Source: the human T2T-CHM13v2.0 reference genome, Homo sapiens. From it: DNA of 64,000 nt. Both the position numbers and the translations under genes were made by a program. The stretch lies in contig CP068257.2 in NCBI GenBank assembly GCA_009914755.4, forward strand, positions 11,744,001 to 11,808,000. Direction: 5' to 3'. Shown here in pieces: positions 12,631-31,526 of this stretch (its first letter is position 1; every line of letters begins with the position of its first letter). The notes beneath the pieces are model-generated. The model was given only the letters and a program-made list of their open reading frames with translations, was not told where the DNA came from and did no database searches.

Positions 12631-12998
12631 CACAAATATTTAAAATGCATTCCAGTATTTTAAATATTTTCGTTTTAATTTCTAATATTAGTTGAAGCAG
12701 TAAATACTCCCACTTCAATAAAAGCTCTCTGATATAAGCTATCATTTGATGTTGACTTTTAGTGGCTATGAAAGACAGCCTAATTAAATGTGTTTTAGAG
12801 TTAAAATCACAAACTATGAAGCCTGAAATCAAAGCGGAGCTAACTGTATTGAGTACACCTAAAATATAAGATAAGCAAAAAAAAAGGAAGTTCCAAAATA
12901 ATATGTACAGTGTACAACTATTTATTGAAAATTTAAGACATGAAAACAAATTCTACACATAGTCTAGAACCACACACATATGTTGTGAATTTCTGGGG

Positions 12999-13303
12999 TT
13001 TTGTTTGTTTGTTTGTTTGCTTTTTGAGATGGAGTGTCACTCTGTTACCAAGGCTGGAGTGGCACAATCTTTGCTCACTGCAACTTCTGCCTCTTAGGTT
13101 CAAGCGATTCTCCTGCCTCAGCCTCCAGAGTAGCTGAGATTACAGGCACCCACCACCAAAACCAGCTATTGTTTGTTATTTTTAGTAGAGATAGGGTTTC
13201 ACTATGTTGACCAGGCTGGTCTGGAACTCCTAACCTTCAGTTATCTGCCCACCTTGGTCTCCCAAAATGCTAGGATTACAGGCATGTGCCGCCGTGCACA
13301 GCC
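12999..13303 (-). mobile_element. Alu (antisense), shared with copy B (25529-25825)
   Basis: 'tttgtttgtttgctttttgagatggagtgtcactctgttaccaaggctggagtggcacaatc...ggattacaggcatgtgccgccgtgcacagcc'. Confidence 0.9.
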
Positions 13304-13488
13304 TGTTGTAACATGTTTTAAACATGCATGGGAATGACAACAAAAACTAATTCAGGCTGTTTTGTACCTCTAGGAAATTAATTACAGTAGCATAAAAAGA
13401 TACTAAGGCCAAATGCTTTAGAGTTACGCTTCTAAAACACCGTGTCTAGCAAAGAGTCATCAAGTAAAGATTTTTAAAAATTATAAGT

Positions 13489-13506
13489 CACACACACACA
13501 CACACT
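13489..13506. repeat. (CA)n microsatellite, short; longer in copy B
   Basis: 'tcacacacacacacacactc'. Confidence 0.85.
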
Positions 13507-14873
13507 CAATCACCTAATCAGAAAAACAAGAAACCGATTTTCTTTAGATTCTCAGAGTGACAACACTCACAACTGTCATGTCAGCAAGTGAAACTTTCCT
13601 CAAAGTAAAGATCAGAATTCCAATCAGCATTTGAACCACTGCAAATATTTCACAGGGTCAAAATTCACCTGCCTCAAAACCGAGCATGTATAGAAATTGC
13701 AAATTGGAAACTTTATAGTATCAGGATATTAAAGAAGAACCACATGAGGTACAGTAGAATTTTTTTTAAATCTCTAAATCTTACGCTTGTAAATGGCATT
13801 TTCTCAAACATGAATACTAACATTGGTATTATTTGTGTCAAATTTCCCCATCCAATTTTGAAAAGAAAACAACATTGGGAATAAAAAGGCTCTTGGCACT
13901 TCAAATATTTTAATGTTCTTAATTCCACAGTAAAATTAAAATTACAAAATTTACCTGCTTTGAATGTTTCTCTGTCCTTCAATTCTAAGGCTTTATTTGG
14001 AAGAGAAATTTTCATTCCACAGGTAGGCTAAATGGGTTTGGAAACACAATAATTACTATATAATGTATACTTCATAAAATAAGTAGTTAATATTCAAGAT
14101 AAAAATATAAAAGTTATTACCTTCAGAAGACCATCTTTATCAGGAGAGTCTAAAAGAAAAGGGACATATATAATTGATTATACGCAAGCCTGTCAAAGTC
14201 TACCAAACATTCATGCAGTGTGAATATGAAGATGAATCCTCACGCTTGGATTGAAAAGGGGTTACACTAGGTTTTGGGGTCTTTTGGGTTATTGTGTTTG
14301 TTAACATGCCAGCGTGACAGAAATATACCTAAGAAAATTTAAAAAATAAATTTCCTCAAACATGCTGTGAAGATTTCAACAGTCAAAATATATTTCAAGT
14401 GACATTAACTAAAGCAGAAAATCCTAATACCAGTAAGAGTAAGCTGTCACATAAGGAAAGAGGTTGAATTTAGTAAGATGACCAAGACATGACCCCTCCA
14501 CCAAAAATAAATAAATAAATGTCCAAGCTAATGGTAGAATGCTATGACATATTATTAAAGAAACACATCAGAATCACTTATGTCAATATACTACAAGTAG
14601 CTATTATGTTCTTCAATTTGTCCTGTAATTTAAGAATTGCAAAGCTCCGATGAGAATTCAAAGGTACAATTTACTTATCATTGCAGAGAATGTTCTAAAT
14701 TCATCAGCATAAATACTACTTATAGAATAAAAGTTTATAAATATATTTATTTTTGAACCTCTGTGAAATACGAGTATTTTTACATTTCTGGGGTTCTCTA
14801 GTTTAGTCTTCTTAAAATTTCGTGATCCACTTATACAGAAAAGTCAAAGCATACCCATCAACAAACTAATACA

Positions 14874-27714: not shown

Positions 27715-28283
27715 CCACATGAGGCAAAGCTGAATTTTTTTTATCTCTAAATCTTATGCTTCTAAATGACATTTTCTCAAACATAAATACTAACATTTGC
27801 ATTATTTGTATCAAATTTTCCCATCAAATTTTCTAAAGAAAACAACATTGGGAATAAAAGGCTCTCGGCATTTCAAATAGTTTAATATTCTTAATTCCAG
27901 ATTAAAATTTAAATTACAAAATTTACCTGCTTTGAGTGTTTCTCTGTCCTTTAATTCTAAGGCTTTATTTGGAAGAGAAACTTTCCTTCCACAGGTAGGC
28001 TAAATGGGTTTGGAAACACAAAAATTAATAGATAATGTATACTTCAAATATATGTAGTTAATATTCAAGATAGAAATATAAAAGTAATTACCTTCAGAAG
28101 ACCATCTTTATCAGGAGACTCTAAAAGAAAAGGGACATATATAATTGATTATATGCAAGCCTGACAAAGCCTACCAAGCATTCGTACAATGTGAATATGA
28201 AGATGAATCCTCATGCTTTGATTGAAAAGGGATTACACTAGGTTTTGGGGTCTTTTGGGTTTCTGTATTTGTTAACATGCCAA
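27715..28283 (+). repeat. Direct repeat unit 2 (~570 bp)
   Basis: 'ccacatgaggcaaagctgaattttttttatctctaaatcttatgcttctaaatgacattttctcaaacataaatac...gggtttctgtatttgttaacatgccaacggg'. Confidence 0.85.
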
Positions 28284-28841
28284 CGGGACAGAAATATACT
28301 TAAGAAAATTTAAAAAATAAATTTCATCAAACTTGCTATGAAGATTTCAACAGTCAAAATATATTTCAACTGACAATAACTAAAGTAGAAAAATCCTAAT
28401 ACCAGTAAGATTAATCTGCCGTATAGGGAAAGAAGTTGAATTTATTAAGATGACCAAGTCATGACCCCCCGCCAAAAAAAAAAAAAAGTCCTAGGTAATG
28501 GTAGAATGCTATGGCATACTGTTAAGGAAACACATCAGAATCTCTTATGTCAATATACTGCAAGTAGCTATTATGTTCTTCAATTTGTCCTGTAATTTAA
28601 GAATTGCAAAGCTGCGATGAGAATTCAAAGGTACAACTTACTTATCATTGCAGAGGATGTTCTAAATTTATCAGCATAAATATCTACTTATAGAATAAAA
28701 GTTTATGAATATATTTATTTTTGATCCTCTGTGATATAGGAGTATTTTTACATTTATGGGGTTCTCCGGTTTAGTCCTCTCAAAATTTCCTGATCCACTT
28801 ATACAGAAAAGTCAAAGCACACCCATCAACAAACTAATACA

Positions 28842-29140
28842 GTCCGGGTGCCATGGCTCATGCCTGTAACTCCGGAACCTTGGAAGCCCGAAGAGGGCGG
28901 ATGTCTCAAGGCCAGGAGTTCCAAAGCAGCCTGGCCAAAATAGCGAAACCCTGTCTCCACAAAAAATACAAAAATCATCCAGGTATGGTGGCACATGCCT
29001 GTAACCCCAGCTACTTGGGAGCCGGAGCTGTGAGAATCACTTGAACCCAGGAGGCCCAGGTGGCAGTGAGTCAAGATCATGCCACTGCACTCCAGCCTGG
29101 ATGACAGAGCGAGACTCTGTCTCAACAAAAGAAAAAACAC
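28842..29140 (+). mobile_element. Alu with A-rich tail, orthologous to 14874-15171; unoccupied L1 target 'aaaagaaaaaacacc' at 29127-29141
   Basis: 'gtccgggtgccatggctcatgcctgtaactccggaacc...gagcgagactctgtctcaacaaaagaaaaaacacctgatatgaaag' runs straight into the sequence that follows the L1 in copy A (18276 onward). Confidence 0.9.
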
Positions 29141-31526
29141 CTGATATGAAAGTATCAAAAACTAGACGTCAATTTCCAGAGACTTTTTACATATCATTAA
29201 CCTGCATATTTCAATGTTAGAATAATGGTTATTGAAAATAACAGTTTTATTGTTCAAGGAATGAATTCTACAATTGCTTTGCTTTGCTAAAACTAATTCT
29301 ATTTGTTATACCATGCGAGTTGTTAAACCACTGTTATGAAAAAGCTTTTATAGAAAGCTTAGCTTCAAGAAAAAACAGACATTTCTTTGACATAGAAATA
29401 TATCTCCTTTCATCAAATAATATGAATAAAACATGCTTAATCTCTCATTTTTCTCTACTTTGTTATTTTTCAGTAAGACACACTTTAATATATTTAGACA
29501 TGTCAAGTATATATGTTGTTTCCTTTGGAGTTGATTGATCAGTAATGAAGACACTTCAGGGGATATAAACTCTCTAAAACACACAAAATTTATGTGCAAG
29601 CATCCTTATGTTATGCTATGATGCATTTGCCAATTGAAAGGGGCAGAAGAAGGCATCTAAAAATCTTGAAAGTCGAACTATCTATTCAACATTTTGGACC
29701 TGCAGTGCTAAAAAATGAACTCACATTAGATTGAAGGAAAGCATAGGGAGATGTGAATGATATGAGCTGCTGAACAAGCTGTGTCTTCAACACAATCTCC
29801 TATTAGGGCAACATTCAAATAAAATAAATATATTGAGATTATATAGAATTATGATGCTGACTGGCCATGAATTCCAGAGGACACAAAAAAAGATTTGCGG
29901 AGTCAGAGGAATTGGAAGATAAGTCTATCTGGATAGCCATATCAGGACAGACATGGCTGAGAACAAAGCATTGTCTGTAATAGAACATACAAATTCTTCC
30001 TTAGAATGTAGTAAAGGGACTCCTTTATTCATATGCAGTTCCTGCCACAACTCTGAATGCATAGATTCTTTTGACTTTACATAAATGCCACAGATTTGTT
30101 TTTATTTTAATGAAGCCCAATGACAGGAGATCCACCAATAAACTGGAGGTAGCAAGTAGCTATTGAAAGTTAAGAAGTTTATGAAATTATTAGAAAATGT
30201 CTTATTGAAACTTTCTGTTACCCATCTCCTAGCATTCAACATCTACCCTCATCAAATTCTATTAGTAAATTTAATAATCACTTTTTGCACAATCAAATTT
30301 TTATTATGCTGGTTAAGTGGGACATACACCATGGTTCCAAATTTTCTATACTTTAAAATTCATTTTCTTCATTTATACTTCATACCATTCTAATTTTCGT
30401 AATTGGTTGAATTCATTGCTTCAATTTCTGATTAATTTCTCATATTATATAATCCTTGAGAGAAAATATGTCCTTCAAACTCAAATTGTTTGTTTCCAGT
30501 GCCATATAGTTAAACATTTCTTTTATTCAGTATGTATTTCAACCTTCCTTGTCTCTCCATAAATCACTATCCTTTTTTCCCTTTACAATTGGTAAATATT
30601 TTATTCTGCAAAGAGGATGGTCTCATTAATTTACCAAATATAATAGTTTTGTATAGGAAAATACATTGAAATTCTAAATATCTATTCAAAATGACATATA
30701 ACAAAACCAATTTTTTTCTTATCAATGGTATAACCAAACAATTTTGAAGAAAATGATGTTACTCAAAGACTTTCTTTATGTAATGTTGCTTAAAGTCACA
30801 GTTGCCAAGCATTTACCAACAACATCAAGCAAGGACTTCCTGTACTTAATATACAAATAGTTTTTTAAAAAAAACAAAATGTCTCTTTCCTCTGCTGAAT
30901 GCTGATTGCAGGCATTAAATCTCCAGTTGCTTGATGAATGCATATTCTTTTAAAAAACAAGCTATCATAACCTATTTTGAGTATAGCAATATTAACAATA
31001 TATTTTTATCTCCTTTGTGATAGATCAGTGAAGCAAGTTTTGAAATGAAGTTAGTAATTTTGAATTTAAATCTACAATTTAACTTTTTAAAAATGCTGAA
31101 ATTTTATGTAACACTTTTCAAAGGTCTTTAGCATAACAAGTTGGTGAGATGAAATGGTAAAATGTGCCAATTAGCTTCCTATCATAGTTCACTTATATAT
31201 CACTTGCATTTTAATAAGTATCGTTATAGATTTCTGAAAAGACCATTATCCTTAACAAACTAACACAAGAATAGAAAAGCAAATACCACATGTTCTCATT
31301 CTCATTTATAAGTGGGTGCTAAATGATGAGAATGTATAGACACACAGAGACCTAGGAGGGTGGGAGGAGAGAGAGGATCAGGAAAAAATAACTAATGGGT
31401 ATCAGGCTTAATACCTGGGTGATGAAATAATCTGTACAATGAACCTCCATGACACAAGCTTGCCTATGTAACAAATCTGCACTTGTATCCCTGAACTTAA
31501 AATAAAATAAAATATACAACTAGCAG

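What the first reader, a model, noticed from the sequence alone, without database searches (positions are those of the whole stretch)
12932..29605. Intra-window direct segmental duplication (~2.7 kb shared), copies ~12.5 kb apart
Positions 12932-18712 and 25462-29605 are collinear over about 2.7 kb of non-TE-specific sequence. They run from 'gaaaatttaagac(a/g)tgaaaacaaa' to '...ctctctaaaacac(a)aaaa(a)t(g/t)tatgt(c/g)caagca', with flanks unrelated outside these points. Both copies contain the same Alu(-) near the 5' end and the same Alu(+) near the 3' end, so the duplication postdates those Alu insertions. My by-eye mismatch estimate of ~5-7% implies the duplication is not recent. Each copy then accumulated private events: the L1 in A; the LTR-like block with 570-bp repeat in B; (CA)n length change. 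Copy B's 5' edge coincides exactly with the poly-A end of an Alu (25147-25461) that is absent from A's flank. That may mark the duplication breakpoint or a later insertion.
Basis: seen in the sequence. Interest (0 to 1): 0.55.

Follow-up and report, generated by a model that had tools for sequence, protein, structure and literature searches.

The report
Repeated exon block inside ANKRD30B-like gene
The two 2.7-kb look-alike stretches are real, but they are not anonymous DNA. Each carries the same pair of small exons of an ANKRD30B-family gene on the opposite strand, so this is an ordinary old exon-block repeat of a kind already recorded in the sister gene ANKRD30A.

Summary
Window 12927-18711 (copy A) and 25462-29603 (copy B) are collinear through about 2.66 kb, including non-Alu sequence. 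Substitution divergence is 7.0%, and the flanks are unrelated. The L1 in A is a private insertion with a 15-bp target-site duplication.

The window is a primate ANKRD30B-family locus read on the minus strand, with mir-3156 at 6732-6808. Each copy holds two exons, c (29 nt) and d (73 nt), with AG/GT splice sites. Together they form a frame-preserving 34-codon cassette. Exons a and b lie between the copies.

The "LTR-like 570-bp repeat" in B is not an LTR. It is a later, B-only re-duplication of the exon-bearing 574-bp block around an 865-bp insert of unknown origin.

A Chlorocebus contig carries the same module as an 8.35-kb tandem array, with the same Alu at the module junction. So the Alu at B's edge marks the old breakpoint rather than a later insertion. 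Divergence between A and B is mosaic, which indicates gene conversion, so 7% dates the last homogenisation and not the founding event.

ANKRD30A has a recorded 11.1 kb x 4 intragenic repeat. Interest is low.

The parts
12927..18711 (.). Copy A (S_A), the last module of the repeat in gene direction. It is 2.70 kb of shared sequence plus a private 3.09-kb L1.
   Evidence: Self-blastn; S alignment.
25462..29603 (.). Copy B (S_B), the upstream module in gene direction. It is shared sequence plus a private R1-I-R2 rearrangement.
   Evidence: Self-blastn; S alignment.
15172..18260 (+). 5'-truncated L1 with poly-A, private to copy A and antisense to the gene. ORF2 remnants lie at 15508-16290 and 16659-18050.
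   Evidence: ORFs. Pfam RVT_1 E = 5.9e-32. Absent from B, from macaque L002 and from both Chlorocebus modules.
15157..15171 (+). Left target-site duplication of the L1, AAAAGAAAAAACACC. The right copy is at 18261-18275, and the single unfilled site in B is at 29127-29141.
   Evidence: Exact string search; junction sequences.
13740..14308 (.). Block R in copy A. It is single-copy here and holds exons c and d.
   Evidence: Three-way alignment; five-way alignment.
26276..26849 (.). R1, the first copy of block R in B. It holds exons c and d.
   Evidence: Self-blastn gives 94.9% identity to R2; K2P between R1 and R2 is 0.047.
26850..27714 (.). Insert I, 865 bp and 44% GC, lying between R1 and R2. 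It is unique in the window, absent from A and from both monkey contigs, and has no coding signal. Its origin is unknown.
27715..28284 (.). R2, the second copy of block R in B. It holds exons c and d.
25147..25461 (+). Junction Alu. Its poly-A tail abuts the end of copy B and its 5' end abuts spacer T. No clear target-site duplication is visible.
   Evidence: The same Alu lies at the same S|T junction in Chlorocebus L001.
18712..25146 (.). Spacer T between the copies. It is intronic sequence carrying exons a and b, and it is homologous to the T parts of monkey contigs L001 and L002.
   Evidence: blastn of L001 and L002 against the window.
23484..23545 (-). Exon a, 62 nt, with AG/GT splice sites. 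It encodes AQMFQSESKQ*DDEEHSWDFE and contains an in-frame TAG where three monkey copies have AAG.
21957..22047 (-). Exon b, 91 nt, with AG/GT splice sites. It encodes SFLETLLQNDVCLPKATHQKEFDTLSGKLE.
14121..14149 (-). Exon c in copy A, 29 nt, with AG/GT splice sites. It encodes (D)SPDKDGLLK.
13955..14027 (-). Exon d in copy A, 73 nt, with AG/GT splice sites. It encodes PTCGMKISLPNKALELKDRETFKA.
26657..26685 (-). Exon c in R1.
26491..26563 (-). Exon d in R1. It encodes PTCGRKVSLPNKALELKDRETFKA.
28092..28120 (-). Exon c in R2.
27927..27999 (-). Exon d in R2. It encodes PTCGRKVSLPNKALELKDRETLKA.
14941..15171 (.). Low-divergence tract between A and B, with 3 differences in about 236 sites, covering the shared Alu(+). 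It is probably a gene-conversion patch and ends at the L1 insertion point.
   Evidence: Difference list. Block table gives 15 shared-derived against 5 private sites. Permutation P = 0.0026.
13021..13303 (-). Shared Alu(-) in copy A. Its partner in B is at 25543-25825.
   Evidence: it lies inside the A/B alignment.
14876..15160 (+). Shared Alu(+) in copy A. Its partner in B is at 28844-29130.
   Evidence: it lies inside the A/B alignment.
6732..6808 (-). mir-3156 hairpin. It is context that identifies the host locus and the gene strand.
   Evidence: Rfam RF03360 at 108.6 bits, above the gathering score of 76. Exact match to the mature miR-3156-5p string recalled from memory at 6779-6800 (-).

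Best explanation
**What it is.** The two copies are successive modules of an intragenic repeat in an ANKRD30B-family gene or pseudogene, transcribed from the minus strand.

**Layout in gene direction.**
- upstream sequence
- S_B, carrying the exon pair c-d twice
- junction Alu
- spacer T, carrying exons a and b
- S_A, carrying exons c-d
- unique downstream exons and the intronic mir-3156

**Reading frame.** Exons c + d total 102 nt and a + b + c + d total 255 nt. Both cassettes enter and leave in phase 1, so adding or removing modules keeps the reading frame.

**History, shown.**
- The junction between the end of S and the Alu tail is old and is shared with a Chlorocebus contig. There the unit S-Alu-T is repeated in tandem with an 8.35-kb period.
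- A and B have exchanged sequence since the duplication, because divergence along the copies is mosaic.
- After the last A/B coalescence, copy B re-duplicated the 574-bp exon-bearing block with an 865-bp insert at the junction.
- Copy A received an L1.

**History, inferred.**
- The founder event was a non-homologous or microhomology-mediated duplication that ended in the A-rich Alu tail. It was either a tandem S-T-Alu duplication later trimmed upstream of B, or a copy of S inserted next to the Alu.
- Unequal crossing-over between S copies afterwards made arrays in some lineages.
- The R1-I-R2 structure arose as a small tandem duplication with filler DNA at the joint, by end-joining or replication template switching.
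For: **Locus identity.**
- Rfam finds mir-3156 at 6732-6808 (-), and the mature sequence matches exactly.
- Papers place miR-3156-2 in an ANKRD30B intron (PMC9422251) and miR-3156 in ANKRD30BP3 (PMC13041471).
- The only database proteins matching the concatenated exons are named ANKRD30B-like, from Chlorocebus and Macaca.
- tblastn places their exons collinearly on the minus strand.

**Exons.** All eight exons have AG..GT. The lengths are 62, 91, 29 and 73 nt. The conceptual splice reads through in one frame apart from a single TAG in exon a.

**Array and junction.**
- L001 has tandem modules.
- The junction Alu is shared between window copy B and L001, whereas copy A and macaque L002 run on into the downstream sequence without it.

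**Gene conversion.**
- Quartet sites give (A,B) 53 against 6 and 6.
- The ratio of shared-derived to private sites is 15:5 in one block and 4:40 in block R, with chi-square P = 5e-6.

**Derived state of R1-I-R2.** Block R is single and I is absent in A, L001 and L002. K2P is 0.047 between R1 and R2, against 0.082-0.088 between either and A.

**L1.** It has a perfect 15-bp target-site duplication, an RVT_1 domain, and four empty sites elsewhere.

**Precedent.** ANKRD30A holds an 11.1 kb x 4 intragenic tandem repeat at more than 95% identity (PMC2588610).
Against: - The window shows only one and a half units (S-Alu-T-S). No second T lies upstream of B, and no further a/b/c/d-like exons were found there. 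A simple tandem duplication therefore needs a second event.
- Exon a carries an in-frame TAG, so this copy may be a pseudogene and the exon cassettes may never be translated.
- Exon sequences differ mostly by amino-acid-changing substitutions, so protein-level constraint is weak.
- The monkey contigs are unplaced and 10-14% diverged, so their orthology to the window is unproven.
The hits it produced are tool results, but the name rests.
Confidence: 0.85

Rival explanations
1. This is a neutral, dispersed segmental duplication of anonymous intergenic or intronic DNA, with no relation to gene structure. One copy was pasted 12.5 kb away about 7% divergence ago.
For: - The flanks are unrelated on both sides.
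- Only 2.7 kb is shared.
- Overall divergence is 7%.
- Exon a has a stop codon, and the exons evolve almost neutrally.
Against: - Each copy carries two AG..GT-flanked exons matching ANKRD30B-like proteins, and together they form an in-frame cassette.
- The same junction occurs in a tandem array in Chlorocebus.
- Divergence is mosaic, so there is no single date.
- The exon-bearing 250-bp window is the least diverged in the five comparisons involving a monkey copy and among the lowest between A and B.
Confidence: 0.08
2. The R/I structure is an LTR retroelement. On this view B keeps LTR-internal-LTR (R1-I-R2) and A holds the solo LTR left by LTR-LTR recombination.
For: Two 574-bp direct repeats at 94.9% identity flank an 865-bp unique segment in B, while A has one copy at the same place.
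Against: - R1 and R2 share differences against A along their whole length, so A's R is not a 5'-R1/3'-R2 chimera.
- Block R is single in macaque and Chlorocebus, and I is absent there.
- R does not begin with TG or end with CA, has no 4-6 bp target-site duplication, and has no primer-binding-site-like or polypurine-tract-like borders.
- R contains two host-gene exons.
Confidence: 0.02
3. The duplication arose by Alu-Alu non-allelic homologous recombination, with the junction Alu as the hybrid product.
For: An Alu sits exactly at the S|T junction, has no recognisable target-site duplication, and is conserved at that junction in Chlorocebus.
Against: - The model needs parental Alus at both outer ends. 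Copy A, and macaque L002, run straight into unique sequence with no Alu.
- The nearest Alu fragment to A's outer edge, at 12514-12630, is 300 bp away.
- No T-Alu follows copy B upstream.
Confidence: 0.1
4. The founder duplication itself is only as old as the 7% A/B divergence, and the Chlorocebus array arose independently.
For: A and B are sisters relative to all monkey copies, with 53 sites against 6 and 6. The distances are 0.073 against 0.11-0.15.
Against: - The S-end|Alu|T-start junction is identical in window copy B and L001, which independent events would not reproduce.
- Block R is almost as diverged between A and B (0.082-0.088) as between A and macaque (0.082).
- The heterogeneity between blocks fits later conversion.
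Confidence: 0.15

Closest known systems
ANKRD30A (NY-BR-1) intragenic tandem repeat, 10p11.21: 11.1-kb unit x 4 copies, more than 95% identity (Warburton et al. 2008, PMC2588610)
   Same: - It is in the same gene family.
- It is a head-to-tail kilobase-scale module inside the gene, and each module carries small exons encoding the SESKQ...KATHQKE...KDGLLK...KALELKD repeat.
- The unit size is of the same order: 8.35 kb in Chlorocebus, and 12.5 kb here after L1 and Alu gains.
   Different: - Only 1.5 units are present here.
- The copies are 7% diverged rather than less than 5%.
- The module lacks the extra 'e' exon recalled for NY-BR-1 (from memory, not tested).
- One exon carries a stop codon.
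- One copy carries a further internal 574-bp duplication.
Human segmental duplications as catalogued (at least 1 kb and at least 90% identity)
   Same: It is a direct intrachromosomal pair with 2.66 kb aligned. BLAST identity is 90.8-92.3% over most of the length and 93% counting substitutions only.
   Different: - It sits at the lower limit of both thresholds, and one block is at 88.6%.
- It is intragenic and exon-bearing.
- About a fifth of the shared length is Alu.
Exon-cassette coding repeats kept in frame by symmetric phases
   Same: The cassettes are phase 1-1, with lengths of 102 nt and 255 nt. Copy number differs between lineages, and the copies show concerted evolution.
   Different: Copy number is low, and there is no evidence here of population polymorphism or of translation.

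Membership tests
Segmental duplication (at least 1 kb, at least 90% identity) | At least 1 kb is aligned outside high-copy repeats. | tested here: met
   With Alu and L1 masked, blocks of 1018, 1138 (overlapping in R), 460 and 59 bp still align.
Segmental duplication (at least 1 kb, at least 90% identity) | Identity is at least 90%. | tested here: met
   BLAST gives 90.8% and 92.3% for the two large blocks and 88.6% for the 481-bp block. Counting substitutions only gives 93.0%. This is borderline.
ANKRD30-family gene body | The exons encode ANKRD30-type repeat peptides. | tested here: met
   The only significant database hits are ANKRD30B-like proteins, with E = 8.7e-16 and 1.3e-8. tblastn places their exons collinearly on the minus strand. 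All exons have AG..GT.
ANKRD30-family gene body | The locus hosts an intronic mir-3156. | tested here: met
   Rfam hit at 108.6 bits. The host genes ANKRD30B and ANKRD30BP3 come from the papers read.
ANKRD30-family gene body | An N-terminal ankyrin-repeat domain and a C-terminal coiled coil lie in the same transcript. | not testable with these tools
   These parts lie outside the window. No reference annotation was available.
Intragenic tandem module array (ANKRD30A type) | Whole units are repeated head to tail. | tested here: inconclusive
   The window has S-Alu-T-S only, with no second T. A full tandem array with an 8.35-kb period is seen in Chlorocebus L001.
LTR retroelement versus solo LTR (for R1-I-R2 against A's R) | TG..CA termini and a 4-6 bp target-site duplication. 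| tested here: not met
   R starts CCACATGA and ends CAAC, with no flanking direct repeat.
LTR retroelement versus solo LTR (for R1-I-R2 against A's R) | The solo LTR is a chimera of the 5' and 3' LTRs. | tested here: not met
   R1 and R2 are sisters along their whole length. Block R is single in the outgroups.
Alu-Alu recombination-mediated duplication | An Alu lies at the duplication junction. | tested here: met
   Alu 25147-25461 lies at the S|T junction, and the same Alu is at that junction in L001.
Alu-Alu recombination-mediated duplication | Parental Alus lie in the same orientation at both outer ends of the unit. | tested here: not met
   No Alu lies at A's outer edge in the window or in macaque, and none was found with T upstream of B.
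L1 retrotransposition (the insert in A) | A poly-A tail, a target-site duplication, a reverse-transcriptase ORF, and an empty site in the paralogue. | tested here: met
   15-bp target-site duplication, poly-A, RVT_1 domain, and empty sites in B, L001 (two) and L002.

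The most novel reading that the evidence does not exclude
Copy number of the 34-codon c-d cassette may be evolving in a lineage-specific way in this ANKRD30B-family locus. Copy B gained a third in-frame cassette through a 574-bp duplication joined by 865 bp of foreign filler DNA, and A and B still exchange sequence by gene conversion. 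If the locus is expressed, it would behave as a slowly evolving coding macrosatellite whose repeat number differs between primates and perhaps between people.
Probability: 0.3. Interest if true: 0.3.

Novelty: new member of a known kind. Interest (0 to 1): 0.18.

Why it matters
The main value is correct annotation. A stretch that looked like an anonymous old duplicate is the genomic basis of the internal peptide repeat of an ANKRD30B-type gene, a relative of the breast-cancer antigen NY-BR-1.

It also gives a compact worked example of three points:
- Percent identity between duplicates misdates the event when gene conversion has acted.
- An Alu tail can mark an old duplication breakpoint.
- Symmetric exon phases let modules be gained without breaking the reading frame.

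None of this is unexpected for this gene family.

Tried and rejected
- **LTR/solo-LTR reading of R1-I-R2.** Rejected by the three-way and five-way alignments and by the outgroups.
- **Extending homology beyond the edges.** Sensitive local alignment of the flanks scored no better than shuffles.
- **A second spacer T, or older a/b/c/d exons, upstream of copy B.** The masked low-stringency blastn and tblastn with window, monkey and recalled NY-BR-1 peptides found nothing.
- **Retrocopy or L1-transduction origin of a copy.** Neither copy has a poly-A at an edge or a flanking target-site duplication.
- **Identity of insert I.** It has no copy elsewhere in the window or in the monkey contigs, no ORF or coding signal, and only one TATAAA. 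No repeat library was available, so its origin stays unknown.
- **Target-site duplication of the junction Alu.** Only a weak AAAAAGA match was found, which is not convincing.
- **Protein database search.** It returned only two short monkey models and no full-length ANKRD30B. I could not decide whether the window is ANKRD30B itself or one of its pseudogene paralogues.
- **One literature search.** It gave nothing relevant beyond ANKRD30BL lying at a relic centromere.

Full report

Yes. blastn of the window against itself gives three collinear plus/plus matches:
- A 12927-14308 = B 25462-26844 (90.8%, 1397 bp)
- A 13740-15171 = B 27715-29141 (92.3%, 1436 bp)
- A 18258-18711 = B 29124-29603 (88.6%, 481 bp)

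Local alignment of the sequence outside the four edges scores within the range of shuffled controls, so the boundaries are sharp.

With the private insertions removed, MAFFT aligns 2658 sites with 186 substitutions. That is 7.0%, or K2P 0.073.

**2. Private events**

*Copy A.* It holds a 5'-truncated L1 at 15172-18260.
- The ORF2 remnants hit Pfam RVT_1 at E = 5.9e-32.
- It has a poly-A tail and a perfect 15-bp target-site duplication, AAAAGAAAAAACACC, at 15157-15171 and 18261-18275.
- Copy B keeps the single unfilled site at 29127-29141.

*Copy B.* It holds a 574-bp direct repeat, R1 26276-26849 and R2 27715-28284, at 94.9% identity. An 865-bp unique insert I (26850-27714) lies between them. 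Copy A has one R, at 13740-14308.

**3. What the sequence is**

*Locus.*
- Rfam finds mir-3156 at 6732-6808 on the minus strand, at 108.6 bits against a gathering score of 76.
- The mature miR-3156-5p string, recalled from memory, matches exactly at 6779-6800 (-).
- Papers place miR-3156-2 in an intron of ANKRD30B on chromosome 18 (PMC9422251) and miR-3156 in ANKRD30BP3 (PMC13041471).

Reading the DNA gives four exon types, every one flanked by AG..GT:

| Exon | Length | Coordinates | Peptide |
|---|---|---|---|
| a | 62 nt | 23545-23484 | AQMFQSESKQ*DDEEHSWDFE |
| b | 91 nt | 22047-21957 | SFLETLLQNDVCLPKATHQKEFDTLSGKLE |
| c | 29 nt | 14149-14121 (A), 26685-26657 (R1), 28120-28092 (R2) | (D/E)SPDKDGLLK |
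| d | 73 nt | 14027-13955 (A), 26563-26491 (R1), 27999-27927 (R2) | PTCG(M/R)K(I/V)SLPNKALELKDRET(F/L)KA |

*Independent confirmation.* A database search with the concatenated exons returned only two significant proteins. Both are named "ankyrin repeat domain-containing protein 30B-like", from Chlorocebus sabaeus and Macaca thibetana. Their further exons (VDVSSVESTF at 8699-8670, and SLFGKPTTENSQSTKVEEDF within 5603-5487) map collinearly downstream on the minus strand.

*Reading frame.* Exons c + d total 102 nt (34 codons) and a + b + c + d total 255 nt (85 codons). Both cassettes enter and leave in phase 1. The conceptual splice R2(c,d)-R1(c,d)-a-b-A(c,d) reads through in one frame, except for a TAG in exon a.

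*Conclusion.* The duplicated 2.7-kb segment (S) is therefore an exon-bearing module of an ANKRD30B-family gene. The 574-bp block R is precisely the part that holds exons c and d.

**4. Outgroup evidence**

The two monkey proteins led to their contigs: L001 (Chlorocebus, 16.4 kb) and L002 (M. thibetana, 19.7 kb).

*L002* is collinear with window 23536 down to 1653. It has no L1 at the A site, a single R and no I.

*L001* is a tandem array of the whole module, T (exons a, b) then S (exons c, d), with an 8.35-kb period. It also has a single R, no I and no L1 at the A site.

*The junction.* At the internal junction in L001, the end of S is followed by an antisense Alu and then the start of T. This is base-for-base the arrangement at window copy B with Alu 25147-25461. 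Window copy A and L002 instead run from the same S end into unique downstream sequence. The Alu at B's edge is therefore an old part of the duplication junction and not a later private insertion.

**5. Order and dating of events**

*A and B are sisters.* Quartet site patterns give (A,B)|(Mt,Cs) 53, against 6 and 6 for the alternatives. The distances are 0.073 between A and B, against 0.11-0.15 between any window copy and any monkey copy.

*Divergence is mosaic.* With the outgroups used to polarise changes, the ratio of shared-derived to private changes varies between blocks:

| Block | Shared-derived : private |
|---|---|
| Shared Alu(+) block | 15:5 |
| Block R | 4:40 |
| Other blocks | intermediate |

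The heterogeneity is significant, with chi-square P = 5e-6 and Fisher P = 2.5e-7. The tract 14941-15171 has 3 differences in about 236 sites, with permutation P = 0.0026. In block R the A-B distance (0.082-0.088) equals the A-macaque distance (0.082).

*Reading.* Together with the shared junction, this says the founder duplication is about as old as the split from the monkey copies, and that gene conversion later homogenised parts of A and B. The 7% figure dates the average last exchange and not the founding event.

*Absolute age.* This is inference only.
- A clock of about 1.1e-9 per site per year gives roughly 30-35 Myr for K = 0.073.
- Scaling to the macaque contig as if it were an orthologue gives roughly 18-22 Myr.

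*R1 and R2.* K2P between them is 0.047. They share 9 derived sites, and their structure is absent from every other copy. So R1-I-R2 arose in B after the A/B coalescence.

*The L1* is the private event in A.

**6. Mechanism**

*Shown.*
- The junction lies at an Alu tail.
- No Alu lies at the outer edges.
- No poly-A or target-site duplication sits at the edges of either copy.
- No second T lies upstream of B.

*Inferred.*
- The founder was a non-homologous or microhomology-mediated duplication ending in the A-rich Alu tail.
- Unequal crossing-over between S copies then produced arrays such as the one in Chlorocebus, and conversion kept A and B similar.
- Classical Alu-Alu recombination is not supported, because the outer Alus it needs are missing.
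- R1-I-R2 looks like a short tandem duplication with 865 bp of filler at the joint. The source of I is unknown.

**7. Comparison with what is known**

Warburton et al. (PMC2588610) list an intragenic tandem repeat in ANKRD30A at 10p11.21, with an 11.1-kb unit, 4 copies and more than 95% identity. The structure here is the ANKRD30B-family counterpart. It has the same kind of module, fewer and older copies, and a premature stop in one exon.

I could not determine whether the window is ANKRD30B itself or a pseudogene paralogue. The TAG in exon a, which is AAG in all three monkey copies, leans towards a pseudogene or a skipped exon.

**8. Verdict**

The finding is a new member of a known kind and of low interest.

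Noticed in passing
window 6732-6808 (-): A complete mir-3156 hairpin (Rfam, 108.6 bits). It has an exact miR-3156-5p string at 6779-6800 (-) and a near-perfect palindromic partner at 6741-6762 (+). The macaque contig L002 has the homologous site with 2-3 mismatches.
   Followed up: partly
window 23484-23545 (-), codon at about 23516-23518: Exon a has an in-frame TAG where both Chlorocebus modules and the macaque contig have AAG (Lys). This suggests the copy is a pseudogene or that the exon is skipped.
   Followed up: partly
window 26850-27714: An 865-bp insert of unknown origin lies between R1 and R2. It is 44% GC, starts TGTAGG and ends GGACAGATAT. It has an internal roughly 100-bp-spaced motif repeat and one TATAAA. 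It has no homologue in the window or in the monkey contigs.
   Followed up: partly
window 19555-20009 (-): A short L1 3'-end fragment (ORF2 C-terminal ORF at 19770-20048) sits next to the Alu at 20012-20307. It is 88.5% identical, in inverted orientation, to the 3' end of the L1 in copy A. The fragment is absent from macaque L002, whereas the adjacent Alu is present there.
   Followed up: partly
window 14513-14834 vs 20498-20829: A weak direct similarity (67.8% over 335 bp) links part of copy A's Y block to part of spacer T. It could be an old interspersed repeat or a trace of an older duplication.
   Followed up: no
window 21084-21202: A 57-bp unit is repeated 2.1 times (91% match) inside spacer T.
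   Followed up: no
window 31500-38830: A dense cluster of about 18 old, mostly AluJ-like elements raises GC to 0.44-0.46. It lies upstream (in gene direction) of copy B.
   Followed up: no
L001 2927-5994 vs 11469-14543, and 7150-9044 vs 14539-16421: Within the Chlorocebus array the two modules are 91.6% identical over the first 3 kb of T but only 84.7% over the end of T plus S. That array also has a mosaic, conversion-like history. L001 1-2293 is an independent L1 with an internal 700-bp duplication.
   Followed up: no
window 25462-25540: The junction Alu (+) and the shared Alu(-) in copy B lie tail to tail only about 75 bp apart, forming an inverted Alu pair. The junction Alu's tail contains AAAATTTAA, which recurs at the first bases of S. 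This motif is not in the Chlorocebus tail.
   Followed up: partly
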